DNA of 64,000 bases from Candidatus Micrarchaeota archaeon (GTDB taxonomy: Archaea; Micrarchaeota; Micrarchaeia; Anstonellales; Bilamarchaeaceae): the NCBI GenBank assembly GCA_014730115.1, contig WJIU01000009.1, positions 4,575-68,574 of the forward strand, written 5' to 3'. Position 1 is the stretch's first letter, and each line of letters starts with the position of its first letter. Made by a program: the position numbers and the translations under genes. Below are positions 30,965-56,990 of the stretch, piece by piece. Under the pieces are notes generated by a model. It ran no database searches and was not told where the DNA came from. It was given only the letters and a program-made list of their open reading frames with translations.

Positions 30965-32048
30965 TGCCCAGAAAAAGCTGAAAGAGCTCGGAGAGCAGAT
31001 GGTCAGTGAAATCAGGAAAGGGGAAGGGCCAAAGTTTGAGAGCACCCTGAGGACCAGGAGCAATACCATTTATGACGAGGCAGTGGGATGCCTCCGGACC
31101 GGAGACAAAAAGGAGACAAGGAAATTCCTGAGCGTCGCCCAGGCAAGGACATTCATGCAGACAGTCGCAATCGCTGCAAAAACCAGGAGGTTCCTGCAGG
31201 AGGAACTGCACACCTCAATCAGGGGCCTTTTCTACCAGCTGAAATTCACCCTGGGGGAAGACATTGATGAGGACTTGTTTACCGAACAGGGGGAGTCCAA
31301 CGCCCTGATTGAAGACCTTGAAGTTGCACTGAACGTGAAGAGGGAGGACCTGCACCTTACCACTGACCGGAAGGGCTTTGTTGCCGGCTCCATGAAAATC
31401 AAGGACAAGTTCGGGGGGGAAGAAACGACAATTGACCTCTCCAGGCAGGGAAGAAGCGGGTGGAGCGTCCCCAGCGACGTGGACAACAACATGGAGATAG
31501 ACAGCCTGGATGCTGATTTTGTGCTGGTGGTGGAGAAAGACGCGCTCTGGCAGCGCCTCAACGAAGACAAGTTCTGGAGAGAGGAAAACTGCCTTCTGGT
31601 AACCCCCAAGGGGCAGTCCACCAGGGGGACGAGAAGGCTGCTTCGCAAGCTTGCGGACAAAAAGCTGCCGGTATACTGCCTCATGGACTGCGATGCATGG
31701 GGGTGGTACATCTACTGGACAATCAAGACCGGAAGCATGAACCTTGCCTATCTGGGCAGGGACTTTGCTGTTCCTGAAGCAAAATTCATCGGAGTCACAA
31801 TGAGCGACATCAAGGAGTTCCCGTTCCTGGAGAAGCTGACCATCAGGGCCAAGGATGTTGATGTAAAGCGTGCCGAAGAAATGATGGGCTACCCCTGGAT
31901 AAACCGGCACAAGGACTGGGTCAGGGAACTCAAGCTTGTTTTGAAAACCAGGAAAAAGCTGGAGCAGGATGCCCTCCAGGGAGAGAGGCTTACATTTGTT
32001 GGCGAATACATAAAGAAGAAAATAGAGAACAAGGAATGGCTGAGATAA
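30942..32048 (+). CDS. top6A: DNA topoisomerase VI subunit A (Spo11 family)
   Basis: IRGLFYQL (catalytic Tyr context), FVLVVEKDALWQRL and the Toprim segment VTPKGQSTRGTRRLL...YCLMDCDAWGWYI. Confidence 0.95.
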   Translation: MIQLKTTNAQKKLKELGEQMVSEIRKGEGPKFESTLRTRSNTIYDEAVGCLRTGDKKETRKFLSVAQARTFMQTVAIAAKTRRFLQEELHTSIRGLFYQLKFTLGEDIDEDLFTEQGESNALIEDLEVALNVKREDLHLTTDRKGFVAGSMKIKDKFGGEETTIDLSRQGRSGWSVPSDVDNNMEIDSLDADFVLVVEKDALWQRLNEDKFWREENCLLVTPKGQSTRGTRRLLRKLADKKLPVYCLMDCDAWGWYIYWTIKTGSMNLAYLGRDFAVPEAKFIGVTMSDIKEFPFLEKLTIRAKDVDVKRAEEMMGYPWINRHKDWVRELKLVLKTRKKLEQDALQGERLTFVGEYIKKKIENKEWLR

Positions 32049-32049
32049 A

Positions 32050-34629
32050 TTACTCTTCCCCTGTTTCATCTTCTTCGTCAAGTATGTACGGGCTTCCGCT
32101 GGAAGGCAGATAATCCTCCCAGTCATCTTCATAGGCAAGCTGAATCAGCCTCTTGTCCGGCGGGCACCACGCGATTTCACAGCCGTTCTTCAGCTGGTAG
32201 TAAGCGGCCATCTTGTTGGCACCGGGGTCTGCCTGCCTTGGGAGGTACTGTATTTCACAGTCATGGACATACTCCACGAAATCAGTGTAGCCGTAGCACT
32301 GGTCAAGGTCGGGAAGGCCGTCATCAGTGCATTCCGGAGGATACTCGTCCTTGTCCCTGTTGTCCTCGCACCACTCTGCATCAATCTCCCAGCTGTCCCT
32401 GAAATTGTCCGCCCAGCACCTCCCGTTGTTCCACGATGACGGACATTCCGGGTTGGAGGAGCCGGCATACCAGAATCCTGCGTACATGTTGGCTGCTATG
32501 TAGGCGGCAAAGACGCTGTCCTTTTCATAGTCCTCCTCTCCCCAGTTGAGATAGGCACGGTTGTTCTCTATCCAGGTCCTTGCATCCCCCAGGTTTTCGG
32601 CCATCTTGGCGGTTCCGAAGCAGAGGGTATGGCTTACATTGAACGGGTTGAAACGGCCGTCCGGAGCACAGGCGCGGGCTGCTGGAATCCTCTGGTCTCT
32701 CATGCTCGGGGTGTCAAAGCCGCTCCGGTCGAATATGTCATAGTAGGGGTTGTCCACTCCCGGGGTGAGGCCCTCGGGAAGCTTGTCGTCGGGCCAGAAG
32801 GTGTACGGGGGGTCGGTAACCTGCATAAGCCCCAGGGCGCACCACCTCCACTGCGGGGAATCGGTATCTGAGTCAGGGGCAATGGCAAACGTGCAGTTGC
32901 CGGCAGGGTCGTACATCTCATCATAGGCAGGCTTGGCATAGCATTCACTGGCGCCGCTGGTCACCCGTGCAAAACACCCGGCCCCTTCGTAATCGGCGGC
33001 ACACACCTTGGCCGCGGCACAGGGGTCGAATCCCGATTCGGTGCGTATGAAAGCGCGCACAAGCAGGGGGTCGATGTTCCTGCGGTCTGCCCATGCCTCT
33101 ATCTCAGGGAAAGAAGTGCACCATTCCTCGGGGGGCGTTCCGGTCATTGAAACGCTTGCCACGCCGAAGTTGAACGGCGGCTCTTCCCTGGTCAGATTGT
33201 TGGTGATGCAGTCCATGCACCGGTAGAGCACAGGGTCTGGGTCGTCAAGCTCGGACTGTACAGGGTTTAGAAGGTCCCCTCCCCCGCCAAGGTTGGCATA
33301 CTGCACCTGCCTAATCATGAAGTCAAGGTTTCCTCCCTGGTCGCAGTAGCCTGCAGATTCATTTGGAAATATAATAGGGGTTCCCGCACCGCGGGTATTT
33401 GTGGAGCCGCTGGAAATCTGGGCATAGTCCTGGCATCCTGCGAACCAGGAGCGCAGCCGGTTCTGGTTTTTGGCCAGGTCACAGTCGTTGCACTCCAGGG
33501 GGTTCATGACCCCATATTGAGTGGAGTACATGGAATAGGGAGCCGCCCCTATTACGCCCTTCTGCTGAAGGGCAAGTATGGTGTCCGGCCAGAACGCTGA
33601 GTATGCCTCGGTCATGAGGTTCTCGCTCCACTGGCAGGTGTTGTCTGCATCCGGGCCGGACGAATCAAAGAGAATGTAGGGTATTATGGTCGGCTTTCCA
33701 TGGTTGTACAGTGCATGCTCGGAAAAGTTCAGGGCCTGGCTCATGATTATGTCATCAGGGTCGCAACCATGGGCATACCTGTAGTCAATGCCATAGGCAA
33801 CCAGGTCCACCTCTTCCTTGATTCCGGGGGTGTTGAGCAGTGCATCCATCGCCTCGTAGTCATTGAACTTGGGGGCAACCGCCACAAAGCAGTTGATTTC
33901 CCCGCTCTCGGCATGGCGGTTGGGATTGCATTCATCGTTGATTCTCCTCACCTGCTCTGCCACCAGGTCGGCCTGGCTGGCGTCGGCGTTCATCTCTGTG
34001 ACCACCACTACCGGTCCGACCGGTCCCTCGGTCAGGGTGCCCAGGGTCACATCATCCCCTTCGGTATAAAGCACATGGGCAATGTCCCCTGCCCTGGTGG
34101 CATCAATGTCCTCGCCCCCGCTGTACATTACATACACCGGCATGACATCCTTGGTCAAAAGGCATATTGCCCGGCTGGCGTCGGGAAGCCCATAGGGGTT
34201 CTCTTCATCAGCAAGCAGCCACTGCACCGCCATGCTGAGCCCGTAATGGCAGTAGGTCTGTGCATCCGAAAAGTCGGAAATAGAAGGCCCCTGGCCTATC
34301 ATGAACTGCCGTATCATGATGCCCTCATTGTCATCCCCCCAGAGCAGGTCGGAGGTTGTCTGCCTTGTGCAGTTGGTATTCCACTGACAGCTCCCGCCGG
34401 CCAGGTTGTTTGACATGCCAAGTGATTCGATGTTCAGGCCGCTCTCGCACACGAAGCAGTGGCAGCTTCCAACCTGGCATTCCTCCAGCTGGCTGGGGTC
34501 GGAAACCGCAATCCTGCCGTGCTGCCGGATGTCGTCGTAATAGCTTTGTGCGTACTGGGAGCCGCCCATGTTGCTTACGCATCCGTATGCAAGCAGGAGC
34601 AACATTACAAATATGGCAAATTTTCTCAT
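32050..34629 (-). CDS. Secreted, cysteine-rich 859-aa protein with a lytic-transglycosylase (SLT/GH23)-like core and acidic C-terminal tail
   Basis: Signal peptide with lipobox-like LLAYGC and about 36 Cys by my count. LLVRAFIRTESGFDP (aa 522-536), CALGLMQVTDP (aa 597-607) and FAAYIAANMYAG (aa 707-718) resemble the three SLT motifs. AGGAG lies 6 nt before the ATG. Confidence 0.6.
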   Translation of the reverse strand: MRKFAIFVMLLLLAYGCVSNMGGSQYAQSYYDDIRQHGRIAVSDPSQLEECQVGSCHCFVCESGLNIESLGMSNNLAGGSCQWNTNCTRQTTSDLLWGDDNEGIMIRQFMIGQGPSISDFSDAQTYCHYGLSMAVQWLLADEENPYGLPDASRAICLLTKDVMPVYVMYSGGEDIDATRAGDIAHVLYTEGDDVTLGTLTEGPVGPVVVVTEMNADASQADLVAEQVRRINDECNPNRHAESGEINCFVAVAPKFNDYEAMDALLNTPGIKEEVDLVAYGIDYRYAHGCDPDDIIMSQALNFSEHALYNHGKPTIIPYILFDSSGPDADNTCQWSENLMTEAYSAFWPDTILALQQKGVIGAAPYSMYSTQYGVMNPLECNDCDLAKNQNRLRSWFAGCQDYAQISSGSTNTRGAGTPIIFPNESAGYCDQGGNLDFMIRQVQYANLGGGGDLLNPVQSELDDPDPVLYRCMDCITNNLTREEPPFNFGVASVSMTGTPPEEWCTSFPEIEAWADRRNIDPLLVRAFIRTESGFDPCAAAKVCAADYEGAGCFARVTSGASECYAKPAYDEMYDPAGNCTFAIAPDSDTDSPQWRWCALGLMQVTDPPYTFWPDDKLPEGLTPGVDNPYYDIFDRSGFDTPSMRDQRIPAARACAPDGRFNPFNVSHTLCFGTAKMAENLGDARTWIENNRAYLNWGEEDYEKDSVFAAYIAANMYAGFWYAGSSNPECPSSWNNGRCWADNFRDSWEIDAEWCEDNRDKDEYPPECTDDGLPDLDQCYGYTDFVEYVHDCEIQYLPRQADPGANKMAAYYQLKNGCEIAWCPPDKRLIQLAYEDDWEDYLPSSGSPYILDEEDETGEE

Positions 34630-34672
34630 GGAAAACTCCTGAATAAAATAAGATAAGAAAGAAATAAAAGGG

Positions 34673-37600
34673 CTAATACAGCACCGTTCCGCAGGAACAC
34701 CTGCTGCCCCTCACGCCGGCCCTGCTGCATCTCGGGCAGTAGACCACCATGTGGAGCTTGTGCGGCTGCATGAGCCTTGAGGTTCCCCTTCCGAGGCTGC
34801 GTGCAGTGCTCTTGAGGCCCTGTCCGTAGCCTCCCCTGCGTCCCTCCTTTGCACGCCTCACATAATTGGACACCATGTCCCTGGGCGTAAGGCTGGTCGG
34901 GTAGAGAGGCACTGGCATGTGCCACATGAACGCTATGGGGTTGGCCCACCCCATAAGCGGGTTCTGCATTGCACCGAAGCCCCTGAGCTCCTGGTCCCTT
35001 CTCAATGCAAGGGCCTCTGCCGACACCGTCCTTCTGGTGGTGTTGGTCCAGGCTGCCTCCTGCACCTTCTTGTCATGCATATAGGTGGCTTCGTTGGCCC
35101 TCAGCATGTATTCTGCCATGGGCGCGTCCAGCTGCATCTCGTGCCTGTAGTTGTAGAAGCTGGCACCGGGGTTTACCTCACCGGTCCTTGCGTTTGCATA
35201 CACACCCTTCTTGTGCAGGAATACATCCTGGGGTGCCTGCCTAAGGCCGGCTGCAAACTCCGGACCTGCAAGCTGGTGCTGCTCAAGGCTTCCGCCGAAC
35301 TTATTGAGCTTGGATATCCTTTCGCTGGTCTTGCCCGGGAACCACTTGAAGGAGAACGGGTTCAGCGACTGCATTGCCTCCCTGAGCCTGGGCGGGGTGT
35401 AGTTGAACTGCCTGAGCGCATCGCCGGTTGCATCGAACTTGGCAGGAGCGCCCTGCATGGACATCTGGAGGCCCCTTATCATTCCAGTGTATGGCCTCAT
35501 CATCTTGCCCGCAAGGTTCATCGGGAACCCGTAGCCTGCCATGAAGCTAGCGTACTCGCCCCGGTCCATGTAGGCCCTGAGGTTGCTTCTGACATCAAAG
35601 TTGGCTGAAGGCCCGTAGTGGAAGAACGCCTGCCAGCTCTGCTGCTGACCGAACGAGGTCGACATCCTCCAGGGATTTCTGTCAATTGCAAAGTCCCAGA
35701 CCTGGTGGTAGGAATAATGCTGCATTGCAACATTCCTGTATGCAACCTTCTCCTCCTCGGTAAGGTTCTGCATGTCGCGGCCAGACATTATCCGGTTGGA
35801 AAGCTGCCAGGAGTGCTGCCTGTAATACTCAGACACCGGGGTAATGTCATACGATGCCTTGTGGAGCGGCCCTCCTGCGGCAAGCGCTGTCTTGGATATG
35901 TAGTCTCCGGCATGCATTCCCATGTCCCTGAACGGCTTGATGACCTTGCTGGTAAAGCCGGGGGCCTCCACGCCAAAGAACCTCATTGGCGACGGAGCCG
36001 AAGGTGTTACCTGGCGCTTGGCTTCAACCGAGACCGAGCTGTTCCTCCAGAACCTCTCGTAGTCATGGGTGGTGTTCGCATACTGCCACAGAACCGCTGC
36101 AAATACTTTCTCCTTTTCGTAGTTGTAGCCCCCTCCCTTGGCCCACTTGGTGGCCGAGCCTATGAAGTTGTCCCAGTCATGGGTGTTCTGGGAGCCGGCG
36201 ACCCGGTAGAACTCCCTCAGCAGGTCGTCCCTGTCCCCGAACTTGATTGGAATGTCTTCAGGTATGAACTTCCTGAGCTGCCCTTTCTCGTCCCTGAGTG
36301 CGACCTCGCCGGAGAGCACACGGTCCTGGTCGCTCAGCATCATGTTCTTTTTGTAGAATGCAAAGCCACCTTCATGAAGCATGACCAGGGCCTGGTTGGT
36401 CTTGGCCACATCATCGTAGGTAACCGGCTTGCTGAGCAGCGCCTCGTATTCCTTCTGGTGGGACTGCATTATGTTGGACAGGTTGGACAGGTCCCTGGGA
36501 TTGGTGGTGTCCATCTCCTCCAGGAACCTTATAGTCGGGTTGTTCTTGGCAAAGCCCTTGTCCTTTAGCGCTTTCTCCATGAAGCCGGCCATTATGCCCC
36601 CGTAGAACCTCACTGTTTCCGCAGTGGTTCCGTAGGTGTTGTGCCCGAAGTGAGAGTTGAACCTCTGCTCCATGTCCTGCTGGAGCTGGTCAAGCACCCA
36701 CAGCTTCTTTGCCTCGGAAGTGCGCTGCTGGACGGTCCAGTTGGCTGAGCCGGCTGCCCTGTCCAGCTCTGCTTCTATTGATGCCTGGTAAGGGGGCACA
36801 TAGCTCTTGGTGAACCTGGACTCAACCCACTGGCCGATTGCATAGTTCTCCCTGGGGTCAAGGCCGGAAACCCAGTGCCTCTTCATGTCCACAAGGGTAG
36901 AGCCCTTGGGCAGGGTAAGCTCCTCGTCGGCTCCCCACCAGACCATCTTCTTGGTCTTGGGGTCTATATGTCCGGTCTTGGGCATGTTCCCTCCGTACAT
37001 GAACTGCACTATCTCGTTCATTGAAGCGTTGTTTATGCTCTTGTTGTTGGTCTGCTGGAAGAGCTTTCTGCCGTCCTCGCTGAACAGGGTTATCATGTCC
37101 TTCCTGTTTCTCTCTGCAACAGCCTCCAGCTGTGTCATGTTCCGCATGTGCTCGGGAAGCTCGTGCGCGCCATGTACCGGGTTGAGGGTTCCAATCCTGT
37201 TGGCAACGTTCAGCCTGGCTGAAAGCAGCTCCTCCTTCATTCCGGCATTGGCTGCCAGGTGGCCGTTCTCCGCATCCCAGATATATGTCCGGAAAATCAT
37301 GGTTTCCCAGATCTGCGATCCCTTCAGCGAATCCCCGCCTACATGGCAGAGATAGGCATCCTCATTTGCCATCCCGCCGGTGTTTACTGACATGCGCACC
37401 TTGTTCTGCTGCTCAAGCTCCTCCTGAAGCAGAAGCAGCTTCACATGGTCAGGATGGGCAGACTGCTCTATGCTCTGGACGCTGTTGGCAAGCTTGAGAA
37501 GCTCGCCGTCAACGGTGGCACCCCTGGACTTTGCAAGGTCCAGAAGCGCGCTGAGCTTCTGCTGGCCGTCTCCGGAACCGGTAAGTATCTTTCTTATCTG

Positions 37601-39400
37601 GCCTTCCAGCTGCCGGAGCTCCTCGGACGATGTATATCCTGACCTTTTCAGGATGTCCAGGTCCCTGTAGCCCATCTCCGCAAGCTCGTGCTCGCTGATA
37701 TTGAACTTTATGCCCATCTTGCGGTAAAGCTGCCTTAGTACATACCTCATCTCATCGCGGAGCGTTTCCTTCCGCAGGGTGCGGTAGAGGTGGGCCATCT
37801 TGTCGTTTACCGGGAACATCTGCCCCACGACTATATCTGACGGGTGTTTCTTGGTAAGCCATGCCGCAGTGGCAGACGTCTTTGCCCTTTCCTCCAGCTG
37901 CTCGACTGCGCGCCTTCCACCGACCATTCCCATGGTGGTCCTGGTTACTCCGCGGGCAAGCTCGGGAACCCCCTTGGCCATCTGCTTGGTCATTCTGCCG
38001 GCAACCTTTCCTGTCCTTATTGTTGAGTCGTACATTGCCGGTGCAAAGCCTCCTATGACTGCATACCTGTTGGCCCCGAACGCCTTGCCGATTTTGCTGG
38101 TGACCCTGGAGTGGAATGCGTCCCTTTTGCCTACATCATTGTGGCCGGTAATGGCTTCCAGGCTCTGGTATGTCCTCTGGCCGAGCATGTAGTCCTTAAG
38201 CGTCATTGCCAGGAGTGCGTTCTTGCCGCCCTTTGCTTCAAGCGCTTCCACAATCTGGGCAACAGTGCGGTGGGCCCTGTCATCCCAGTGGTAGGGAAGG
38301 CGCCCTGCGAGATGCTCAAGCTCCTCGGTGCTCATGCCGACCTGGCGTCCTGCGGTTACCGCCGCCTCTGCAATTTTCTTTCCTTCTTCCACATCTCCGG
38401 CTGCACGGTCGCCAGCAGTCCCCTTCAGGCCCTTTATCCCCCTTTTAAGTCTGTCAAGCGTAGCGTCTCCAGCCATCCTCCTGCTCATGCCTCTGGCAGT
38501 AAGCAGGGCTGCACCGGCAGCCTTGCCCATCTTTCCCCTGGTGGTCCTTTTCAGCTCTGTGTAGCCGAAAGGCATCAGCACCTGGCCGCCCGCAGCCACA
38601 CCCTTGGGCTGGGGCATTCTGGGCGTGGTAATGTCAAGCAGTGTTATGGGCGACTTTCCTGCAAAGTAAAGCGATGCAAGCAGCAGGCCCAGTATCATGA
38701 ATACGCCGAGGCAAAGCGGCGAGGTTGAAACCCCTGAAATCTGTGCAACTATGAGGTCCCTGAGGTTCTTGGTGAACTGCTCGGCAGCAGGCACCCGTAC
38801 ATTGTTGAAGTAATATAATGACCTGCTGGGCCTTATGTCCTGGCCCGGCTCCGGGTCGTAGTTTATTCTTAATGTAGTCCTTCCGGGCTGTCCTTCCACT
38901 GCCGGAGCGAAGTCACACTCTGCATAATAGTAGCTTACTGTCTCCAGCCCGCCGGGGTCAGTAGCGGAAGGGGTTGTTGCGGTGCCGGGGGTGCTGGTAA
39001 TTCTATTTGAACACCCCTGGACAGGTGTGTAGCTCCCTGATATTGTATTATAATATTCCACTGTAATCCTGGCATCGCTGAGGAATTCGAATTCGGGGTT
39101 GTATCCTGCAGAGGCCGCAGTCCTCCGGTTGGCCTCTTCCATAATGCATGCCTGGTCTCCTTCACAATCTTCTACAATTTCCTGCATAACCAAGCGTATG
39201 TCGGTCCCGGACTGGCCGGTTGCAGGGTTGAAAACCATCACGCTGACGTGGAGAACGGTGTCCTCATCCTCAACAGGAGTGACTACCACCTGGCTCTCCC
39301 TGAGGCTGCTGTCTCCCCCTGTCGGGAAGCCGCCGGCAAACACGCTGGCGGCAAGGAGCAGCAGCAACACGGCCCCGAAAACATAATTTTTAGATGTCAT
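34673..39400 (-). CDS. Orphan 1575-aa membrane protein: signal/anchor, ~200-aa ectodomain, one TM helix, ~1300-aa cytosolic region, C-terminal zinc ribbon
   Basis: An uninterrupted 4.7-kb ORF. N-terminal VFGAVLLLLLAASVFAGG and a TM helix LCLGVFMILGLLLASLYFAG (aa ~227-247) followed by a K/R-rich stretch. It ends in CPRCSRAGVRGSRCSCG. No P-loop or HExxH was seen, and the antisense ORFs look artefactual. Confidence 0.75.
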   Translation of the reverse strand: MTSKNYVFGAVLLLLLAASVFAGGFPTGGDSSLRESQVVVTPVEDEDTVLHVSVMVFNPATGQSGTDIRLVMQEIVEDCEGDQACIMEEANRRTAASAGYNPEFEFLSDARITVEYYNTISGSYTPVQGCSNRITSTPGTATTPSATDPGGLETVSYYYAECDFAPAVEGQPGRTTLRINYDPEPGQDIRPSRSLYYFNNVRVPAAEQFTKNLRDLIVAQISGVSTSPLCLGVFMILGLLLASLYFAGKSPITLLDITTPRMPQPKGVAAGGQVLMPFGYTELKRTTRGKMGKAAGAALLTARGMSRRMAGDATLDRLKRGIKGLKGTAGDRAAGDVEEGKKIAEAAVTAGRQVGMSTEELEHLAGRLPYHWDDRAHRTVAQIVEALEAKGGKNALLAMTLKDYMLGQRTYQSLEAITGHNDVGKRDAFHSRVTSKIGKAFGANRYAVIGGFAPAMYDSTIRTGKVAGRMTKQMAKGVPELARGVTRTTMGMVGGRRAVEQLEERAKTSATAAWLTKKHPSDIVVGQMFPVNDKMAHLYRTLRKETLRDEMRYVLRQLYRKMGIKFNISEHELAEMGYRDLDILKRSGYTSSEELRQLEGQIRKILTGSGDGQQKLSALLDLAKSRGATVDGELLKLANSVQSIEQSAHPDHVKLLLLQEELEQQNKVRMSVNTGGMANEDAYLCHVGGDSLKGSQIWETMIFRTYIWDAENGHLAANAGMKEELLSARLNVANRIGTLNPVHGAHELPEHMRNMTQLEAVAERNRKDMITLFSEDGRKLFQQTNNKSINNASMNEIVQFMYGGNMPKTGHIDPKTKKMVWWGADEELTLPKGSTLVDMKRHWVSGLDPRENYAIGQWVESRFTKSYVPPYQASIEAELDRAAGSANWTVQQRTSEAKKLWVLDQLQQDMEQRFNSHFGHNTYGTTAETVRFYGGIMAGFMEKALKDKGFAKNNPTIRFLEEMDTTNPRDLSNLSNIMQSHQKEYEALLSKPVTYDDVAKTNQALVMLHEGGFAFYKKNMMLSDQDRVLSGEVALRDEKGQLRKFIPEDIPIKFGDRDDLLREFYRVAGSQNTHDWDNFIGSATKWAKGGGYNYEKEKVFAAVLWQYANTTHDYERFWRNSSVSVEAKRQVTPSAPSPMRFFGVEAPGFTSKVIKPFRDMGMHAGDYISKTALAAGGPLHKASYDITPVSEYYRQHSWQLSNRIMSGRDMQNLTEEEKVAYRNVAMQHYSYHQVWDFAIDRNPWRMSTSFGQQQSWQAFFHYGPSANFDVRSNLRAYMDRGEYASFMAGYGFPMNLAGKMMRPYTGMIRGLQMSMQGAPAKFDATGDALRQFNYTPPRLREAMQSLNPFSFKWFPGKTSERISKLNKFGGSLEQHQLAGPEFAAGLRQAPQDVFLHKKGVYANARTGEVNPGASFYNYRHEMQLDAPMAEYMLRANEATYMHDKKVQEAAWTNTTRRTVSAEALALRRDQELRGFGAMQNPLMGWANPIAFMWHMPVPLYPTSLTPRDMVSNYVRRAKEGRRGGYGQGLKSTARSLGRGTSRLMQPHKLHMVVYCPRCSRAGVRGSRCSCGTVLY

Positions 39401-39484: not shown

Positions 39485-39515
39485 ATTGTCGTATAATAGG
39501 CAAAAAGGTGTTGTT

Positions 39516-40532
39516 ATGAAAGGACCAAACCCGTTTTCACCATGGGAGGAAGCTCCCGGAAGCATTATAGGAAGAAAAGAGGAAACCAGGATATTTAATG
39601 CTTTCCTCAACGCCACATCCTCCAAGCAGACCGGAATGATAGTGATGACCGGCACCCCCGGCCTGGGAAAAAGCTCCCTTCTCAGGTATTTCCGACAGAT
39701 GGCAGAAAAAGAGGGAATGCTCGCTCCCCTGGTAAAGGTTGAAAAGGGAGAAAACGAAGAGGCAGTGGCCGAGAAGCTCCACCACGAACTGGCCATCCTT
39801 CCCGGCTTTGCAACCCGGGGAAAGGGGGCCCCCTCAAGGCTAGATGAGCTCCCTGATAAAACAAAGCTGGACAAGCAGCATTTCGGGATTGTTTTCTTTA
39901 TAGACGATATAGACCTGATGAAAAAAAACGAGCGTGCTGTGAAGAAACTGGCAGAAACTGTCAGGAAGCATTACGGAAAAAAGCCGTTTTCATTTGTTGT
40001 CAGCTCCACCAGGGAATTCAGGGTAAGGTCAGAGCTTGTCCAGCTGATTGAGCTGGAGCCTTTTACCGAGGAAAATGCAAGGGAGATGGTGGAAAAGGCG
40101 CTCAAGGAGAAAAAACTGAAGATGGGGGAGGGGTGCCTGAAGACAATCCTGGCAGACACCAACGGAAACCAGAAGCTGTTCAAGAGCGTGTGCCGTTACA
40201 TCTACGACCGCCTCCGGGAAAATGAAAAGGTCATGACCAAGGGGCATTACCTCGCCTATCTCCCCTATATAATGAGCATGCTGTCCAGGGAATCCTTTGG
40301 CAGGATGTACCAGGAAACGCCGCCGGCGGAAAGAAGCATACTCCATGAGATAGCAAAAAATGAAAAAGGAGGGCACATATCGGATGTTGCCGGAGAAATC
40401 GGCCGCCCCCTCGGCCAGGTTACCGCGCTAGCAAAAAGACTGCTGGACCGGGGGCAGATTGTGAGGATGGAAAGGGGGAAGTACAGGATTTTTTCACGGC
40501 TTTATGCCCGGTATGTCCTCCAGAGGGGCTAG
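39516..40532 (+). CDS. P-loop NTPase (archaeal-ATPase/AAA-like) with C-terminal winged-helix domain
   Basis: Walker A GTPGLGKSS, Walker B-like IVFFIDDID, and a C-terminal ISDVAGEIGRPLGQVTALAKRLLDRGQIVRMERGKYRI. ATG at 39516 after AAAAAGGTG. Confidence 0.7.
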   Translation: MKGPNPFSPWEEAPGSIIGRKEETRIFNAFLNATSSKQTGMIVMTGTPGLGKSSLLRYFRQMAEKEGMLAPLVKVEKGENEEAVAEKLHHELAILPGFATRGKGAPSRLDELPDKTKLDKQHFGIVFFIDDIDLMKKNERAVKKLAETVRKHYGKKPFSFVVSSTREFRVRSELVQLIELEPFTEENAREMVEKALKEKKLKMGEGCLKTILADTNGNQKLFKSVCRYIYDRLRENEKVMTKGHYLAYLPYIMSMLSRESFGRMYQETPPAERSILHEIAKNEKGGHISDVAGEIGRPLGQVTALAKRLLDRGQIVRMERGKYRIFSRLYARYVLQRG

Positions 40533-41047
40533 TAGGCAAGCAGCCAGTCAGTCTCAAAAACATAGAGAAATTCTTCCACAGACCCCCTGTCTCTGATTAT
40601 TACCGATGCCTCACGGTTTTTCGTAAGGGCAGAATTGCTGAGGTTATGGGAACCGACAAGCACTGCCTTTCCGTCAACAAGTATGAATTTGGAGTGGGTA
40701 AGCTTGTATGTGTCCGAAGCATAACGGACATTGAAACCCTTGGAAGCCAGCTCGCGGTAGATTTCCTGGTTTTTTGTTCCCAGGGTGTTTCTCTCTATTA
40801 TTATCCTAATACTGACTCCGCGGGCCTTTGCCCGCTCCAGGGCCTCAATAACATCCCTAGAGGATATCACATAGATTTCAATGTCAATAGTTTCCTCGGC
40901 TGTATCTATGAAATCAATTATTTTCTGCCCGCCCTCCGGAGAGAATACAGCAGTAATCACAGGAGAAAAGACGAATTCCGAAAGCAGAAAATGGATTGAT
41001 AATCCAAGAATCAGCCCCACAAAAACAAAAGTTGCGTCACGCCTCAT
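40529..41047 (-). CDS. Membrane-anchored single-HKD phospholipase D-family protein (Nuc-like nuclease/phosphodiesterase)
   Basis: N-terminal TM helix FVFVGLILGLSIHFLL and the HKD motif HSKFILVDGKAVLVGSHNLSNSA. Confidence 0.8.
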   Translation of the reverse strand: MRRDATFVFVGLILGLSIHFLLSEFVFSPVITAVFSPEGGQKIIDFIDTAEETIDIEIYVISSRDVIEALERAKARGVSIRIIIERNTLGTKNQEIYRELASKGFNVRYASDTYKLTHSKFILVDGKAVLVGSHNLSNSALTKNREASVIIRDRGSVEEFLYVFETDWLLAY

Positions 41048-52933: not shown

Positions 52934-54550
52934 ATGGCAAAAAGAAACGGTGGCAATCTTTTCAGGACCGCGGAATACAGGAGAGACGCCAGCAGGACAT
53001 TCGGAAGGATGTCCCGGACTACCTTGAGGGTCACCGGGCTTGAAACCGTTTTTGAGCAGGCAAATGCAAAAAACAAGGGGGTTCTGAAGCACTTAATCGG
53101 AGACCGCATACAATACGAGGACATAATAAAGGGATGCGGGGACAATCCGGAAGCAATATGGAAAGAGGTAAGGGAAAGAGATGGGGAAAAGCAGGGGCAG
53201 GCGGTGCGTGTTGTAGGAATGTCCCTGGGAAACCCCAATGCCTATCCTGCATTCCCCCCAAACCCGACCCTGATGGGATGCATACGGGAAAGCATGGCCG
53301 AGGAAAACGACCGGGCTTCCTGCAGCTATACTGCCTCCTACGGCCTTCCCCCGCTGAGGGAATATCTCCGAAGCGTCAACCTCTCCGACCCCTCCAGCGT
53401 AAACAAGGACCCCGGAAAGTTCAAGGACGTGAAAGTGCTGGTTACTGCAGGCGGGAGCCAGGCTGCCCATTATGGAATGGCGCCTTCGCTGCTGAGGCCT
53501 GAACACACTGTTGCAGTCCATGACTGGATTTACATCATCCACCTTGGCGCTGCCTATTACCGGAATGCCCGCCTGAAGAACTTTGAACTCAGGAATGACG
53601 GGGTTCCCGACCCCGAATCGCTGAGGGCAGTGCTTCATGAAAGTGCCCAGAACGGAGCTGAAATAAGGTGCATGGTTTCCACCACTATCGGGAATCCCAT
53701 CGGCTCCGCGACTCCGCGGGGTGTACTGGTTGAAACCATGGAAGTAATCAGGCATCAGTCTGAGCATGAGGGGCGGCCAATAATAGCATTCTTTGATACT
53801 GCCTATGAGGCCTTCCGGCCGGACGGAAAGCCAATTGACCCCATCGAGGTTGCGATTGATGAAGGCATTGAAATCCCGGTTGGGGTGTTTGAGACTGCCT
53901 CCAAGGGCCATGGCCTCTGCGGGTTCAGGCTGGGCGCATTGAGGATGTGGTGGCCTCCATCTTATTTCTCAAGGCTGAGGGAGGATTATCTGAGCTCCCT
54001 TGATTTCATTGTACAGCCGACCCTTGGCCTGGTGGCAAATCCCATACAAAGAGGGCTGCTGAGCTACCTCACCAGGATTGAAATGAACTCGGGGGAGCTT
54101 GCCAGAGATATGCAGTTTCTTGAAGAAAGAAGGGGGCGGGCCAGCGCAAACCTGATTGACATAGGCAACAAATTAAGGGAGATTGACGGGGTTTACCTGG
54201 GAAGGTACTATGACCATTCTGGCGAGCTGGACAGCATAGACCCGAATACGCTTGCATCGTTCTACCTCACCTTTGGCTTCCACGGCCTCACCAAATTCGG
54301 TGCAAGGTGCAACCAGGCGCGGGAGCTTGCAAGATTCTGCCTGGATAACGGGCTTCCGGTTATCAGCGCAGTGCCTGGATTTTCATTTCTTCCCGAAGAA
54401 AGATGGTCGGACCATCCCGCGCTTATCCGGGTAACCGGCCTCACTGATGAGGAAAACACCCGGGCATTCCTGAAGAGCGTATCTTCCTACGCAGACCATC
54501 TGGCAAGGAAAAAGAAGTCTGTTGTTCCCATAAGCAGCGGCTACTCATAG
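52934..54550 (+). CDS. PLP-dependent aminotransferase-fold protein with ~100-aa N-terminal extension
   Basis: GNPNAYPAFPPNP, TIGNPIGS and the PLP-lysine context ETASKGHGLCGFRLGAL. Confidence 0.7.
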   Translation: MAKRNGGNLFRTAEYRRDASRTFGRMSRTTLRVTGLETVFEQANAKNKGVLKHLIGDRIQYEDIIKGCGDNPEAIWKEVRERDGEKQGQAVRVVGMSLGNPNAYPAFPPNPTLMGCIRESMAEENDRASCSYTASYGLPPLREYLRSVNLSDPSSVNKDPGKFKDVKVLVTAGGSQAAHYGMAPSLLRPEHTVAVHDWIYIIHLGAAYYRNARLKNFELRNDGVPDPESLRAVLHESAQNGAEIRCMVSTTIGNPIGSATPRGVLVETMEVIRHQSEHEGRPIIAFFDTAYEAFRPDGKPIDPIEVAIDEGIEIPVGVFETASKGHGLCGFRLGALRMWWPPSYFSRLREDYLSSLDFIVQPTLGLVANPIQRGLLSYLTRIEMNSGELARDMQFLEERRGRASANLIDIGNKLREIDGVYLGRYYDHSGELDSIDPNTLASFYLTFGFHGLTKFGARCNQARELARFCLDNGLPVISAVPGFSFLPEERWSDHPALIRVTGLTDEENTRAFLKSVSSYADHLARKKKSVVPISSGYS

Positions 54551-55770
54551 CCCAGGGCCTCAACCGGGTCCATCTTTGCGGCCCGCCTTGCCGGAAGATA
54601 GCCGGCCAGCAGTCCGGTGCCCACTGAAAAGAGGAATACAAAGGCAATTATCGAAGGAGTGATGAGCACAGGTACGTCAAAAAGGTCCTTCAGCACCTCA
54701 AGAGCAGCATATCCAAGTATCAGACCTATTATTCCGCCGGTGAAACCGATTATTGCACTCTCGGTAAGGAAGAGGAACAGGATATCATTCCCGGTTCCAC
54801 CCATTGATTTCAGTATTCCGATTTCCTTTACTCTTTCCAGGACATTCATGAACATGGTATTGGCTATGCCTATTGCACCCACCAGCGAAGCGATAAGGGT
54901 TATTACTGCCAGCATCAGCTGGGCAGTGAACAGAATTGTTCCGACAATCTCCATTATCTGGTCGGAGGTTATTACGGAAAAGTCAAGGTCGTCCATCTTC
55001 ACCCGGTGGTTGGCGGCAAGCTTGCGCTCTATTGTCTCCTTTATGTTCTCCGGATTGAATCCTTCATCCACCTCTACGAATATAACCCCCACCTCATCTT
55101 CCAGCAGCTGGCCCTCGAAAAGCTCCCTGCCGTCTTCAAAGGGAATGTATATGTTGGCGTCATCAGTGCCCCCCAGGGAAGTGCCTATTTCCTCCTGAAT
55201 GCCGACCACCCGGTAGTTGATTCCGTTTATCTGGATTACGCTTCCCACGTCTACTTTCTTTTTTCTGAACAATTCATTGGCGGCGGCGTAGCCGAAGAAG
55301 GCTACCCTGGTCTCGCCGTTCCGGTAGAGCCTTCCCTCCTGGACCTCGATGTAGTCGCCATAAATCTCAAACATTTCCTTGTCGGTGGGATAAATCATGG
55401 TGGAGATATTATGGTCCTTGTAGGAGAGAGAAACCCTTCCGAAAACGGTGCGCGCAACCCTCTCCACCCCCGGAATGTTCTGAATGTCCTCCACATCCTC
55501 ATCAAACAGTTTTCCGCTGGTCTGGAGCAGGGAAAAGGAGCCTCCGCCAAAGCCCTCACCTGCAGAAGAAATAGGATAAACAAACATCATGTCTGCACCG
55601 AAGGCAGAAAGCTGGTCCCTTATGTCCTGGTTGAATCCCTCGCTGATGGAGAGTATTACCACAATCGCGATTACACCCACCACCATGCCAATGATGGTAA
55701 GCCAGCTGCGCAGGCTCCTGGTGCGGAGGTTTTTGATTGAGTATAGGAATGCTTCCTGGATATTCATCAT
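54541..55770 (-). CDS. ABC transporter permease (MacB/FtsX family)
   Basis: N-terminal TM helix, a large extracytoplasmic domain and a C-terminal FtsX 3-TM bundle with RVKEIGILKSMGGT. Confidence 0.9.
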   Translation of the reverse strand: MMNIQEAFLYSIKNLRTRSLRSWLTIIGMVVGVIAIVVILSISEGFNQDIRDQLSAFGADMMFVYPISSAGEGFGGGSFSLLQTSGKLFDEDVEDIQNIPGVERVARTVFGRVSLSYKDHNISTMIYPTDKEMFEIYGDYIEVQEGRLYRNGETRVAFFGYAAANELFRKKKVDVGSVIQINGINYRVVGIQEEIGTSLGGTDDANIYIPFEDGRELFEGQLLEDEVGVIFVEVDEGFNPENIKETIERKLAANHRVKMDDLDFSVITSDQIMEIVGTILFTAQLMLAVITLIASLVGAIGIANTMFMNVLERVKEIGILKSMGGTGNDILFLFLTESAIIGFTGGIIGLILGYAALEVLKDLFDVPVLITPSIIAFVFLFSVGTGLLAGYLPARRAAKMDPVEALGYE

Positions 55771-56984
55771 TCATACCTCAGTGCTACGATTGGGTCCACC
55801 TTTGCAGCATCAATTGCCGGAAAGGTGCCGGAGATGATTCCTATGAGTATGGAAAACACAATTGCGCCCGCAATGACAAACGGGTCAAACACAAATGTCA
55901 GTTCCAGCAGACTGTCAAGGGCAAGTCCGGCCAGCACTGCTATCAGGAGCCCCATCAAGCCGCCAGTCAGACCTATGATTGCCGACTCCACCAGGAACAG
56001 GTTCCTGATTGTCTCCTGGCTTGCACCCACCGCCTTCATAGTGCCAATTTCCCTTCTTCTTTCCATCACGCTCATGAACATAGTGTTGGAGATTCCTATC
56101 CCCCCCACAATAAGCGATATCGAGGCTATTGCCCCAAGGAAGATGGTGAGCAGGTCAAGGATGCTGCTGAACCGCTCATTGATGAAGGTGGGGGTTATAA
56201 CTCCGAAATCCTTTTCCTCCTCTGTGACCCGGTGGGATGCGAGAAGGATGTCCTCTATCTCCTCCCCGATTGCATCAACGTCGCTTCCTTCCACCAGGGT
56301 AAGATATATCGCAGATATCTCATTTTCCAGAAGGGACCGGTTGAAAAGTTTCCTGGCATCGTCTTTTGGTATGAATACCACATTGTCTATAGGGGCAAAA
56401 GAATTGCCGGTGGGCTTGAGCACGCCCACTACCTTGAACCGTTTCTCGCTCAGATAGACGTTGGAGTGGGTCCTGACTTCCTCGTCGAATCCCTCCGCAA
56501 CGTCCGCCCCCAGACCGGCCACGTTCCTGTCATTTTCCTGCAGGAACCTCCCCTGCTCAATCTCAACCGGAACAGCATCATCGAACACGTCAGCCTCAAT
56601 CCCGAATATGGATACGCTGATGGATTCATCCTTGTAGGTCATCGTTGTCTGCCCAATGATGACCTGGGTAATTGATTTTATTTCCGGTATTTTTTTTACC
56701 CGCTCGAAATCCTTTTCCCAGAGCTTTCCGGTGGTAGGGGAGAACGAAGAGCCGGGGCCGATGCTGGCCCCCCCTCCTTCCGGATTGGTTGGGGTGATAA
56801 TAATAGTGCGCGGGCCAAAGTCCTCCAGCTGCTCCAGCACATCCTCCTTGAATCCCTGCACAATTCCAACCAGGATGATAACCGACGATATGCCCACTAT
56901 TATCCCAAGAACCGTAAGAAAGGAGCGGAGCTTCTGGTGAAGCAGGGAATTCAGAGTGAAGTCAACCATCTCCTTAAGGTTCAT
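55767..56984 (-). CDS. ABC transporter permease (MacB/FtsX family), second paralogue
   Basis: Same architecture, with RRREIGTMKAVGAS. It overlaps its neighbour by 4 nt. Confidence 0.9.
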   Translation of the reverse strand: MNLKEMVDFTLNSLLHQKLRSFLTVLGIIVGISSVIILVGIVQGFKEDVLEQLEDFGPRTIIITPTNPEGGGASIGPGSSFSPTTGKLWEKDFERVKKIPEIKSITQVIIGQTTMTYKDESISVSIFGIEADVFDDAVPVEIEQGRFLQENDRNVAGLGADVAEGFDEEVRTHSNVYLSEKRFKVVGVLKPTGNSFAPIDNVVFIPKDDARKLFNRSLLENEISAIYLTLVEGSDVDAIGEEIEDILLASHRVTEEEKDFGVITPTFINERFSSILDLLTIFLGAIASISLIVGGIGISNTMFMSVMERRREIGTMKAVGASQETIRNLFLVESAIIGLTGGLMGLLIAVLAGLALDSLLELTFVFDPFVIAGAIVFSILIGIISGTFPAIDAAKVDPIVALRYE

Positions 56985-56990
56985 CCACCG

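What the first reader, a model, noticed from the sequence alone, without database searches (positions are those of the whole stretch)
32455..33117. SLT/GH23-like catalytic core with a long Cys-rich insertion inside an archaeal exoprotein
Three segments appear in the order of the SLT-domain motifs: RAFIRTESGFDP, CALGLMQVTDPPY and FAAYIAANMYAG. These correspond to the catalytic Glu-Ser, GLMQ and an AYNAG-like motif.

About 60 residues carrying 5-6 Cys are inserted between ES and GLMQ, where typical SLT domains have roughly a dozen. The whole protein has about 36 Cys, a lipobox-like signal end (LLAYGC) and an acidic tail (DEEDETGEE). The N-terminal ~450 aa have alternating beta/alpha-like segments that I could not assign.

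The SLT call rests on motif memory, not on a search.
Basis: partly seen in the sequence, partly recalled or inferred. Interest (0 to 1): 0.65.

Follow-up and report, generated by a model that had tools for sequence, protein, structure and literature searches.

The report
Divergent lysozyme-like glycanase of Micrarchaeota
A tiny symbiotic archaeon encodes a membrane-tethered, disulfide-rich surface enzyme that joins an unclassified sugar-cleaving barrel to a highly divergent version of the bacterial cell-wall-cutting "SLT" domain, and this protein always sits next to a giant membrane protein, which suggests a conserved envelope- or host-directed tool.

Summary
The 859-aa ORF (32050-34629, minus strand) carries ES (E531), GLMQ (600-603), NPFN...GT and AAYIAxxxYxG motifs. 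All are nearly invariant in 47 to 144 homologues. Pfam SLT is the only family hit. It is borderline on the native sequence and rises to 31 bits once the 53-aa Cys-rich insertion is removed. A spliced family profile finds only GH23 lytic transglycosylases among solved structures, and E531 aligns with the Glu of MltC's TES motif. Foldseek's best neighbours in two libraries are GH23 enzymes, although none is individually significant.

New findings:
- The unassigned N-terminal half is a (beta/alpha)8 glycosidase-like barrel with an invariant Glu after strand 4. No sequence family matches it.
- The lipobox-type signal end and about 36 Cys are family traits. The acidic tail is not.
- The family is closed, with 297 clusters in 1.84 billion representatives. 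Every named source is Micrarchaeota (order Anstonellales where a family is given).
- In 46 of 48 genomes the gene directly follows a gene for a bitopic membrane protein of about 1600 aa. A divergently transcribed P-loop ATPase gene lies beyond that.

The substrate is unknown. Peptidoglycan is my leading guess. I rate this a new variant of a known kind, of moderate interest.

The parts
32050..34629 (-). Whole gene: an 859-aa Cys-rich two-domain exoprotein
   Evidence: ORF. There are 47 full-length homologues at E down to 0. AF2 model has pLDDT 88.4 and pTM 0.87.
34579..34629 (-). Signal peptide ending in the lipobox-like ...AYG-C17 (aa 1-17)
   Evidence: The n-region, h-region and G-C end recur in nearly all full-length homologues. 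C17 is Cys in 135 of 144. Lipidation itself is inferred.
34330..34497 (-). Small N-terminal Cys-rich module (aa ~45-100; C51, C56, C58, C61, C81, C87)
   Evidence: These Cys are conserved. C58 and C87 are lost together (phi 0.85). The model shows short beta-strands here.
33334..34329 (-). (beta/alpha)8 TIM-barrel, glycoside-hydrolase-like domain (aa ~101-432)
   Evidence: All top 50 Foldseek PDB matches are TIM-barrel proteins, nearly all clan GH-A glycosidases (GH26, GH53, GH5, GH39, GH30). The best is E 8.7e-6, probability 1.0. No Pfam family matches at E<=1.
33994..33996 (-). Codon of E212, the candidate catalytic acid of the barrel (two residues after strand beta4)
   Evidence: Glu in 47 of 47 and 137 of 144. 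The strand numbering comes from the DSSP string of the model.
32455..33117 (-). GH23/SLT-like catalytic core (aa 505-725); these are the finding's own coordinates
33037..33039 (-). Codon of E531, the putative catalytic Glu, at the C-terminal end of helix 521-531
   Evidence: Glu in 46 of 47 and 134 of 144. It aligns with the Glu of MltC's TES motif. A second MltC PDB sequence (4cfo) has Gln at that same column.
32842..33000 (-). Conserved Cys-rich insertion between the ES and GLMQ motifs (aa 544-596)
   Evidence: S-to-G spacing is 45-101 residues (median 70) with 2-8 Cys (median 6) across the family, against 13 residues in Slt70. Y564, D574, P575 and C579 are at least 90% conserved. pLDDT is 87-96.
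32821..32832 (-). GLMQ motif (aa 600-603)
   Evidence: G600 is kept in 47 of 47 and Q603 in 46 of 47. It aligns to GLMQ of MltC and of Slt70.
32095..32454 (-). C-terminal helical, Cys-rich extension of the GH23-like domain (aa 726-845)
   Evidence: Helices with pLDDT around 90. Conserved Cys at 754, 767, 778, 791, 817 and 822. Co-loss pairs are C729-C738, C754-C767 and C537-C791.
34673..39400 (-). Upstream partner gene: a 1575-aa bitopic membrane protein. It has a signal or TM1 segment, an ectodomain of about 200 aa, TM2 at aa 223-241, a long tail that I infer to be cytoplasmic, and a C-terminal CPxC..C..C motif. The gap to the target gene is 43 bp.
   Evidence: A homologue lies directly upstream on the same strand in 46 of 48 loci. 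No Pfam, PDB, PADLOC or PHROGs match.
39486..40532 (+). Divergently transcribed P-loop ATPase (AAA_16/AAA_22 type), the third member of the conserved module
   Evidence: Pfam hits. Present in 40 of 48 loci, essentially all with enough upstream sequence. It is not Orc1/Cdc6: 21 bits against a cutoff of 181.

Best explanation
The gene encodes an extracellular, probably lipid-anchored, disulfide-stabilised enzyme with two glycan-cleaving domains.

Export and anchoring. The protein is exported by its signal peptide and tethered to the outer face of the cytoplasmic membrane through Cys17. Anchoring by a thioether-linked archaeol is inferred by analogy with Haloferax lipoproteins.

C-terminal domain. 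The C-terminal half is a very divergent member of the GH23/SLT lysozyme-like superfamily. E531 sits at the end of a helix and would act as the single general acid/base on a beta-1,4-linked N-acetyl-hexosamine glycan. The GLMQ strand, the NPFN...GT segment and the Y716-x-G718 segment would line the substrate groove. A conserved, disulfide-stapled insertion of about 55 residues and a helical C-terminal extension remodel that groove.

N-terminal domain. The N-terminal half is a (beta/alpha)8 glycosidase-like barrel with an invariant Glu (E212) just after strand 4. I infer that it is a second glycosidase activity.

Substrate. My most likely guess is peptidoglycan of neighbouring or host bacteria, cut in the manner of a lytic transglycosylase or muramidase (about 45%). 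Chitin-like or chitobiose-containing archaeal glycans are the main alternative.

Module. The gene is almost certainly co-transcribed with a giant bitopic membrane protein and sits next to a P-loop ATPase gene. I infer that the enzyme works at, or is positioned by, that membrane complex.

Shown: the motifs and their conservation, the fold-level relationships, the export signal, and the synteny. Inferred: catalysis, substrate, lipidation, disulfides and the functional coupling.

The confidence figure of 0.7 applies to the general statement (a genuine divergent GH23-type catalytic domain in an exported two-domain glycanase), not to the peptidoglycan substrate specifically.
For: SLT homology:
- Pfam SLT is the sole family hit, at the gathering cutoff.
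- 24 of 47 homologues hit it.
- With the insertion spliced out, 10 of 10 members hit SLT only, up to 31.2 bits.
- The spliced profile finds 17 PDB sequences, all GH23 lytic transglycosylases, and E531 falls on the Glu of MltC's TES motif.
- Foldseek's top 45 PDB neighbours are almost all GH23 (MltF probability 0.92, MltE TM 0.52-0.56), including the GH23 chitinase and g-type lysozyme. The named top neighbours in the viral library are also mostly LT/SLT proteins.

Conservation: E531, S532, G600, Q603, N661, P662, Y716 and G718 are conserved.

Barrel: Foldseek E 8.7e-6 to clan GH-A enzymes. E212 is 47/47 and 137/144; Y318 and Y365 are above 96%.

Export and anchor: a conserved signal peptide ending in G-C. 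AliA is reported in DPANN (PMC12462473).

Disulfides: about 36 Cys in every member, and Cys are lost in pairs.

Module: 46 of 48 loci have the giant gene directly upstream, and 40 of 48 have the ATPase. The pairing is kept even in the divergent Anstonellaceae subfamily.

Archaeal context: topoisomerase VI A/B, TFB and a KRR1-type KH protein.
Against: - No individual structural match reaches E<=0.001, and RMSDs are large (7-10 A).
- HMMER aligns only the ES-to-GLMQ part (profile positions 3-45). The rest of the SLT model is not aligned.
- hhalign against a single Slt70 sequence aligned only GLMQ.
- The AYNAG motif is not matched strictly.
- The splicing test involves a choice made by me.
- The beta7 acid of the barrel is not conserved (Ser in 24 of 144), so a classical clan GH-A retaining mechanism is doubtful, and that domain could be non-catalytic or use another mechanism.
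- Nothing in the window points to peptidoglycan use.
- The hosts named for Micrarchaeota in the papers I read are Thermoplasmatales archaea rather than bacteria. That Thermoplasmatales lack a cell wall is my own knowledge.
Confidence: 0.7

Rival explanations
1. The fold and catalytic Glu are as above, but the natural substrate is not peptidoglycan. The enzyme would cut GlcNAc-containing archaeal glycans, in the way the GH23 chitinase does. Candidates are the chitobiose core or glycocalyx of a host's S-layer glycoproteins, or the organism's own envelope. Its role would be to open the host surface or remodel its own.
For: - GH23 includes a chitinase, and MltE binds chitopentaose. Both are among the structural neighbours (3w6e and 4hjy).
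- The gene is single-copy at every locus found, is syntenic with housekeeping genes, and the family is confined to one archaeal phylum. That pattern suits a core cell-biology or host-interface role better than an accessory antibacterial weapon.
- Cultivated Micrarchaeota carry glycosylated S-layers and depend on archaeal hosts.
- The second domain resembles mannanases, galactanases and PslG rather than muramidases.
Against: - The best sequence matches are peptidoglycan lytic transglycosylases (MltC, MltE).
- The ES/GLMQ motif set is typical of family-1 lytic transglycosylases (my own knowledge).
- The hosts of these non-acidophilic Anstonellales are unknown and could be bacteria.
Confidence: 0.3
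2. The GH23-like domain is a catalytically inert glycan-binding or adhesion module, and the protein is mainly an adhesin or structural envelope component.
For: - Two short paralogues have Gln in place of the catalytic Glu (P0123 and P0132), so binding-only versions do exist.
- The large insertions could occlude the groove.
- Castelle et al. proposed attachment roles for DPANN proteins with lytic transglycosylase domains (PMC8204110).
Against: E531 is kept in 134 of 144 and S532 in 126 of 144 full-length members, along with the rest of the motif set. Such purifying selection on the catalytic dyad is not expected for a pure binding module.
Confidence: 0.1
3. The similarity to SLT is convergent or a chance resemblance of short motifs, and the C-terminal half is an unrelated helical domain.
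For: - The native Pfam score sits exactly at the threshold.
- The full-length profile and the single sequence find nothing in PDB sequences.
- No Foldseek hit is individually significant.
Against: Independent lines converge on one family only:
- Pfam.
- PDB sequences, where all 17 hits are GH23.
- Two structure libraries, whose top lists are dominated by GH23/LT proteins.
- A motif order that matches Slt70.
Confidence: 0.05
4. The gene is a recent horizontal acquisition of a bacterial or phage lytic transglycosylase or endolysin.
For: GC content is higher over 32-38 kb (0.56-0.57) than in the rest of the window (about 0.50). SLT domains are overwhelmingly bacterial or phage-borne.
Against: - The family is closed: only 297 clusters in 1.84 billion representatives, and the listed best 150 are family members or fragments with no sign of bacterial SLT proteins.
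- Named sources are all Micrarchaeota.
- Synteny is conserved down to 26-33% identity.
- No PHROGs hit.
Confidence: 0.03

Closest known systems
Family-1 lytic transglycosylases / GH23 SLT domain (Pfam PF01464), e.g. E. coli MltC, MltE (EmtA) and Slt70
   Same: - The catalytic Glu-Ser lies at the end of a helix.
- GLMQ follows on the next strand.
- A D/N-P-x-N...G-T segment is present.
- It has a lysozyme-like alpha+beta fold.
- These enzymes are the best sequence and structure neighbours.
- Like MltC and MltE, it has a lipoprotein-type signal end.
   Different: - 67 residues with 6 Cys separate ES from GLMQ, against 13 in the known enzymes.
- Two further expansions occur: Q-to-N spacing has a median of 52 residues against 25, and GT-to-Y about 37 against about 19.
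- There is a Cys-rich helical extension of about 130 aa.
- AYNAG is replaced by AAYIAxxxYxG.
- The domain is fused to a TIM barrel.
- The host is archaeal, and the sequence is too divergent for routine annotation: none of the 47 homologues has a precomputed Pfam hit, and only P0198 among the relatives has one.
Large extracellular proteins with lytic transglycosylase domains in Pacearchaeota/Woesearchaeota, and the 'lytic murein transglycosylase' noted in three Micrarchaeota genomes (PMC8204110; PMC5864196)
   Same: These are DPANN archaea that encode secreted SLT-like domains, interpreted as tools for binding or degrading bacterial cell walls.
   Different: Those proteins were found by standard annotation and reach 3000 aa. 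They are described for other phyla or for only three genomes. No TIM-barrel fusion, Cys-rich insertion or link to a giant membrane protein is described for them. I could not test whether the three Micrarchaeota genes belong to this family.
Clan GH-A (beta/alpha)8 glycosidases (GH26, GH53, GH5, GH39 PslG, GH30)
   Same: The N-terminal domain has the overall barrel fold, with an invariant Glu after beta4 at the position of the clan's acid/base.
   Different: - It has no sequence-family membership.
- Thr rather than Asn precedes the Glu.
- The beta7 position is Asp in most members and Ser in the divergent subfamily, not the clan's nucleophile Glu.
Goose-type lysozyme and the Ralstonia GH23 chitinase
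   Same: Same superfamily, with ES and GLMQ-type motifs, and both are among the structural neighbours (3gxk and 3w6e).
   Different: From my recollection of the goose lysozyme sequence, its extra catalytic Asp residues have no clearly conserved counterpart here. An acid two residues after GLMQ is present in only about 60% of members. D574 in the insertion is conserved, but I could not determine where it sits in space.

Membership tests
GH23 / SLT domain (PF01464) | Profile match at or above Pfam's gathering cutoff | tested here: met
   21.4 bits against a cutoff of 21.3 on the native protein, and it is the only family hit. 24 of 47 homologues hit at E<0.1. After removing the insertion, 8 of 10 members exceed the cutoff, up to 31.2 bits. 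The native match is marginal, and only profile positions 3-45 truly align.
GH23 / SLT domain (PF01464) | Catalytic Glu (ES motif) at the C-terminal end of a helix, and conserved | tested here: met
   E531 ends helix 521-531. It is kept in 46 of 47 and 134 of 144. It aligns with the Glu of MltC's TES motif, and a second MltC PDB sequence has Gln at that column.
GH23 / SLT domain (PF01464) | GLMQ motif on the strand following the ES loop | tested here: met
   G600 is kept in 47 of 47 and Q603 in 46 of 47. The strand at 594-599 precedes the motif. It aligns to GLMQ of MltC and Slt70. The spacing from ES is 67 residues rather than about 13.
GH23 / SLT domain (PF01464) | AYNAG-type motif in the C-terminal lobe | tested here: inconclusive
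   AAYIAANMYAG is present, with Y710, Y716 and G718 conserved. It lacks the Asn, is one helical turn longer, and was never aligned to the profile by HMMER.
GH23 / SLT domain (PF01464) | Lysozyme-like alpha+beta fold superposable on solved GH23 enzymes | tested here: inconclusive
   The top 45 PDB neighbours are almost all GH23, with TM 0.52-0.56 normalised to MltE and MltF at probability 0.92. The same family heads the named hits in the viral library. However, no hit reaches E<=0.001 and RMSDs are 7-10 A. The result is favourable but not statistically decisive.
GH23 / SLT domain (PF01464) | Cleavage of the MurNAc-beta-1,4-GlcNAc bond (1,6-anhydro-MurNAc product for lytic transglycosylases) | not testable with these tools
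   This needs biochemistry.
Clan GH-A TIM-barrel glycosidases | (beta/alpha)8 barrel fold | tested here: met
   Foldseek against PDB: E 8.7e-6 to 1e-3, probability 1.0, about 330 aligned columns, to GH26, GH53, GH5, GH39 and GH30 enzymes.
Clan GH-A TIM-barrel glycosidases | Acid/base Glu at the end of beta4 (the N-E motif) | tested here: inconclusive
   E212 is invariant two residues after strand 207-210, but it is preceded by Thr rather than Asn. The strand numbering is inferred from the model only.
Clan GH-A TIM-barrel glycosidases | Nucleophile Glu at the end of beta7 | tested here: not met
   Position 322 is Asp in 42 and Glu in 5 of 47. In 144 sequences it is Asp 90, Glu 13 and Ser 24. 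I therefore do not file the domain as a clan GH-A member, only as a GH-A-like barrel.
Clan GH-A TIM-barrel glycosidases | Membership of a described sequence family | tested here: not met
   No Pfam or NCBIfam family matches the N-terminal half, even at E<=1. No PDB sequence match either.
Lipobox lipoproteins (archaeal AliA-type or bacterial Lgt-type substrates) | Signal peptide ending in [LVI][ASTVI][GAS]C | tested here: inconclusive
   G16-C17 is conserved (C17 in 135 of 144). Many homologues have canonical ends such as ISGC, IAGC and LSGC. The window protein reads A-Y-G-C, which deviates at positions -3 and -2. Lipidation is not testable here.

The most novel reading that the evidence does not exclude
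The P-loop ATPase, the giant bitopic membrane protein and the two-domain glycanase form one conserved, Micrarchaeota-specific envelope machine. In this reading the cytoplasmic ATPase and the roughly 1300-aa tail of the giant protein control or position the lipid-anchored glycanase through the small ectodomain. That would be analogous in logic to FtsEX-controlled wall hydrolases, or to the specialised lytic transglycosylases of secretion systems. The machine would breach the glycan layer of a host or prey cell, or remodel the symbiont's own envelope, at the cell-cell contact site. This would give DPANN-host attachment a concrete and testable molecular component.
Probability: 0.18. Interest if true: 0.8.

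Novelty: new variant of a known kind. Interest (0 to 1): 0.5.

Why it matters
How DPANN archaea attach to other cells and take material from them is an open question, and most of their lineage-specific surface proteins have no predicted function. This finding assigns a concrete, testable biochemical function (glycan strand cleavage, with named catalytic residues E531 and E212) to a previously unannotated protein family. That family is found in many genomes of the one order (Anstonellales) its named sources can be placed in. It also ties the protein to two equally uncharacterised neighbours.

If the substrate is peptidoglycan, these Micrarchaeota would be implicated in interactions with bacteria rather than, or as well as, archaea. 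If the substrate is an archaeal glycan, GH23 chemistry would extend to a new target.

The result also shows that the SLT superfamily tolerates an insertion of about 55 residues directly between its two core catalytic motifs. That explains why routine annotation misses the family.

Tried and rejected
- phmmer of the full protein, and hmmsearch of the full-length family profile, against PDB sequences gave nothing relevant. The insertions hide the domain.
- hhalign of the C-terminal family profile against a single Slt70 catalytic-domain sequence aligned only GLMQ, at probability 1%. I judged this uninformative and did not build a proper SLT profile.
- PADLOC and PHROGs gave no hit for the target or the giant partner. 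I rejected a defence-system or phage origin for these two genes.
- I considered that the conserved ATPase is Orc1/Cdc6 and the synteny merely marks a replication origin. I rejected this: 21 bits against a cutoff of 181, and the intergenic gap is only 85 bp.
- The acidic tail as a functional feature is rejected, because it is not conserved.
- A classical clan GH-A double-Glu mechanism for the barrel is rejected, because the beta7 acid is variable.
- Pseudomurein as a lytic transglycosylase substrate is unlikely on chemical grounds (my own knowledge, not tested). Its linkages are beta-1,3, and its uronic acid sugar has no C6-OH with which to form a 1,6-anhydro ring.
- I searched the window for a second copy or paralogue and found none.
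- The C563-C597 disulfide guess received only partial support (phi 0.46).
- Literature searches found no description of this family.
Full report
**The object**

The finding lies inside one ORF, window 32050-34629 on the minus strand, 859 aa. The neighbourhood is plainly archaeal. Topoisomerase VI B and A converge on the gene, and TFB, a KRR1-type KH protein and PCMT are nearby. The rest of the window is ordinary housekeeping.

**The family**

A homology search returned 47 full-length relatives at 32-61% identity. All are "hypothetical protein", none has a precomputed Pfam domain, and all named sources are Micrarchaeota or Bilamarchaeum.

An exhaustive profile search of 1.84 billion representative proteins found only 297 proteins at E<=0.001, of which 194 are at E<=1e-30. 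The family is therefore closed and does not grade into the huge bacterial SLT superfamily.

A scan of species-representative genomes gave 48 loci, one copy per locus. Titles read Micrarchaeota, Micrarchaeia, Bilamarchaeaceae or generically "archaeon", apart from two records labelled "Candidatus ainarchaeum sp.".

A more divergent subfamily of about 750 aa comes from Candidatus Anstonellaceae and other Micrarchaeota. Both named families belong to order Anstonellales, class Micrarchaeia.

**Is the C-terminal half an SLT/GH23 domain?**

- Pfam SLT (PF01464) is the only family hit. It scores 21.4 bits against a gathering cutoff of 21.3. At E<0.1, 24 of 47 homologues hit it individually.
- The motifs are nearly invariant, while mean column identity is 31%. 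In the 47-sequence alignment the counts are E531 46, S532 44, G600 47, Q603 46, N661 44, P662 47, Y716 41 and G718 47. The pattern holds in 144 near-full-length representatives.
- Read against the genuine E. coli Slt70 sequence, the order is the same...ARQES...GASGLMQ...LLDPETNINIGTSYL...SSAAYNAG in Slt70, and ...IRTES...CALGLMQ...RFNPFNVSHTLCFGTAKM...FAAYIAANMYAG here.
- HMMER cannot bridge the insertion cheaply. I therefore removed only aa 544-596, the segment between the two beta-strands of the model, from ten diverse members. All ten then hit SLT and nothing else. Eight passed the cutoff, and the window protein rose to 31.2 bits (E 1.8e-7) over profile positions 3-45.
- A profile of these spliced domains, searched against all PDB sequences, returned 17 sequences at E<=10. 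Every one is a GH23 lytic transglycosylase: MltC at 1.1e-4, then MltE, LtgA and EtgA. E531 aligns with the Glu of MltC's TES motif, and a second MltC PDB sequence (4cfo) has Gln at that same column.
- A confident model of aa 455-859 (pLDDT 90) has no PDB neighbour at E<=0.001. Even so, nearly all of its top 45 neighbours are GH23 enzymes: MltF (probability 0.92), MltE (TM 0.52-0.56 normalised to the target), Slt70, LtgA, the Ralstonia GH23 chitinase and a g-type lysozyme. The named top hits in the viral structure library are also mostly LT/GEWL proteins.

I conclude that the domain is a true but very divergent GH23 relative. The weak points are these:
- the marginal native score;
- the lack of any individually significant structural hit;
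- the failure of any method to align the C-terminal lobe, so the "AYNAG-like" call is unproven;
- an uninformative hhalign run against a single Slt70 sequence.

**The insertion**

Between S532 and G600 there are 67 residues with six Cys, against 13 residues in Slt70 and MltC. Across the family the spacing is 45-101 residues (median 70), with a median of six Cys.

It is not a floppy loop. pLDDT is 87-96, and Y564, D574, P575 and C579 are at least 90% conserved. Two further expansions follow GLMQ and the GT segment, and a helical, Cys-rich extension of about 130 aa follows the core.

Cys residues are lost in pairs across 144 sequences:

| Pair | phi |
|---|---|
| C380-C383 | 1.0 |
| C729-C738 | 0.91 |
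| C58-C87 | 0.85 |
| C754-C767 | 0.80 |
| C537-C791 | 0.69 |

This is what disulfide partners would do. It remains an inference, and both shared ancestry and alignment error are caveats.

**The N-terminal half**

The full-length model (pLDDT 88.4, pTM 0.87) shows eight beta/alpha units between about aa 101 and 432. All top 50 Foldseek PDB matches are TIM-barrel proteins, and nearly all are clan GH-A glycosidases (GH26, GH53, GH5, GH39 PslG, GH30). The best E-value is 8.7e-6, at probability 1.0. No sequence family matches, even at E<=1.

E212, two residues after strand 4, is invariant (47 of 47; 137 of 144). Y318 and Y365 are kept in more than 96% of sequences.

The acid after strand 7 is Asp or Glu in only 103 of 144 sequences, and Ser in the divergent subfamily. 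I therefore describe the domain as a GH-A-like barrel with one conserved Glu, not as a clan GH-A member.

**Export**

Nearly all full-length homologues begin with a basic n-region and a hydrophobic core, and end in G-C. C17 is kept in 135 of 144. Archaeal lipobox proteins are lipidated by AliA, which is reported in DPANN (PMC12462473).

The window's A-Y-G-C is not a canonical lipobox, so lipidation is plausible but unproven. The acidic tail is not conserved.

**Genomic module**

The gene starts 43 bp after the stop of a 1575-aa ORF on the same strand, with an AGGAG six bases upstream of the ATG. A homologue of that giant protein lies directly upstream in 46 of 48 loci. A divergently transcribed P-loop ATPase gene is present in 40 loci, which is essentially all that have enough sequence.

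The divergent Anstonellaceae-type subfamily keeps the pairing. The 1913-aa partner at locus L055 shares the ectodomain, the TM helix and a DIT(T/A)PR(M/L)P motif with the window's protein (E 2e-10).

The giant protein has a signal or TM1 segment, an ectodomain of about 200 aa, a second TM helix and about 1300 further residues. It ends in a conserved CPxC...C...C zinc-ribbon-like motif, which implies a cytoplasmic tail. It matches nothing in Pfam, PDB, PADLOC or PHROGs. The ATPase is not Orc1/Cdc6.

**Mechanism proposed**

- Shown: the motifs, their conservation, the fold relationships, the signal peptide and the synteny.
- Inferred:
  - The protein is exported and tethered at Cys17, and its many Cys form disulfides.
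  - E531 acts as the single general acid/base of a GH23-type cleavage of a beta-1,4 HexNAc glycan.
  - The barrel supplies a second glycosidase activity through E212.
  - The enzyme operates together with the giant membrane protein and the ATPase.
- Substrate: peptidoglycan is my first guess (about 45%), because the nearest relatives are peptidoglycan lytic transglycosylases. A chitin-like or archaeal glycan is the main rival (about 30%). The reasons are the core-gene behaviour, the GH23 chitinase precedent, and the Thermoplasmatales (archaeal) hosts named for Micrarchaeota in the papers I read.

**Comparison with what is known**

SLT-like domains in DPANN have been reported before. They occur in large Pacearchaeota and Woesearchaeota proteins (PMC8204110) and in three Micrarchaeota genomes (PMC5864196). 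The idea of an archaeal exoprotein with an SLT domain is therefore not new.

Several things are new:
- this specific, unannotated family, found in many Micrarchaeota genomes;
- the conserved Cys-rich insertion that splits the catalytic motifs;
- the fusion to an unclassified glycosidase-like barrel;
- the existence of short paralogues that carry only the GH23-like domain, two of them with Gln for the catalytic Glu;
- the conserved three-gene arrangement.

**Verdict**

I rate this a new variant of a known kind, with interest 0.5.

Noticed in passing
window 34673-39400 (-): A 1575-aa protein with no match in any library. It has a signal or TM1 segment, an ectodomain of about 200 aa, TM2, a juxtamembrane LLDITTPRMP motif, a tail of about 1300 aa and a conserved C-terminal CPxC..C..C zinc-ribbon-like end. 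A homologue lies directly upstream of the target's homologue in 46 of 48 genomes.
   Followed up: partly
window 39486-40532 (+) and 40529-41047 (-): A P-loop ATPase (AAA_16/AAA_22; not Orc1/Cdc6) is transcribed divergently from the giant gene. A PLD-family nuclease-like gene (DrmC/NucT-like) overlaps its 3' end by 4 bp on the opposite strand. The ATPase is conserved in 40 of 48 loci and the PLD gene in 24 of 48.
   Followed up: partly
window 4599-4717 (+): Rfam finds a complete tRNA (model positions 1-71, 56.6 bits) spanning 119 nt, but ARAGORN reports no tRNA in the window. It is probably an intron-containing archaeal tRNA.
   Followed up: no
window 32001-38000: GC content is 0.56-0.57 across the target and the giant gene, against about 0.50 (0.43-0.53) elsewhere in the window. 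Given the conserved synteny, this more likely reflects amino-acid composition than recent transfer.
   Followed up: no
proteins P0111, P0118, P0120, P0121, P0123, P0129, P0132, P0162; locus L056:6001-7131: Short (344-445 aa) lipoprotein-type paralogues carry only the GH23-like domain, with fewer Cys. P0123 and P0132 have Gln instead of the catalytic Glu.
   Followed up: partly
L009:7001-12086, L020, and L005:10788-14696 (the same contig region as L042): In L009 the tblastn match to the target spans about 5 kb with doubled score, which suggests a tandem duplicate. In L009 and L020 about 1.4 kb separates the giant gene from the target. In L005 a further 1302-aa ORF with no Pfam hit follows the target.
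   Followed up: no
window 54541-58463 (-): Two tandem MacB/FtsX-type permease genes are followed by a 490-aa surface protein with CARDB and NPCBM-associated domains. This is another candidate cell-surface module.
   Followed up: no
window 4891-5853 (+): A Fic/DOC-domain protein, 320 aa.
   Followed up: no
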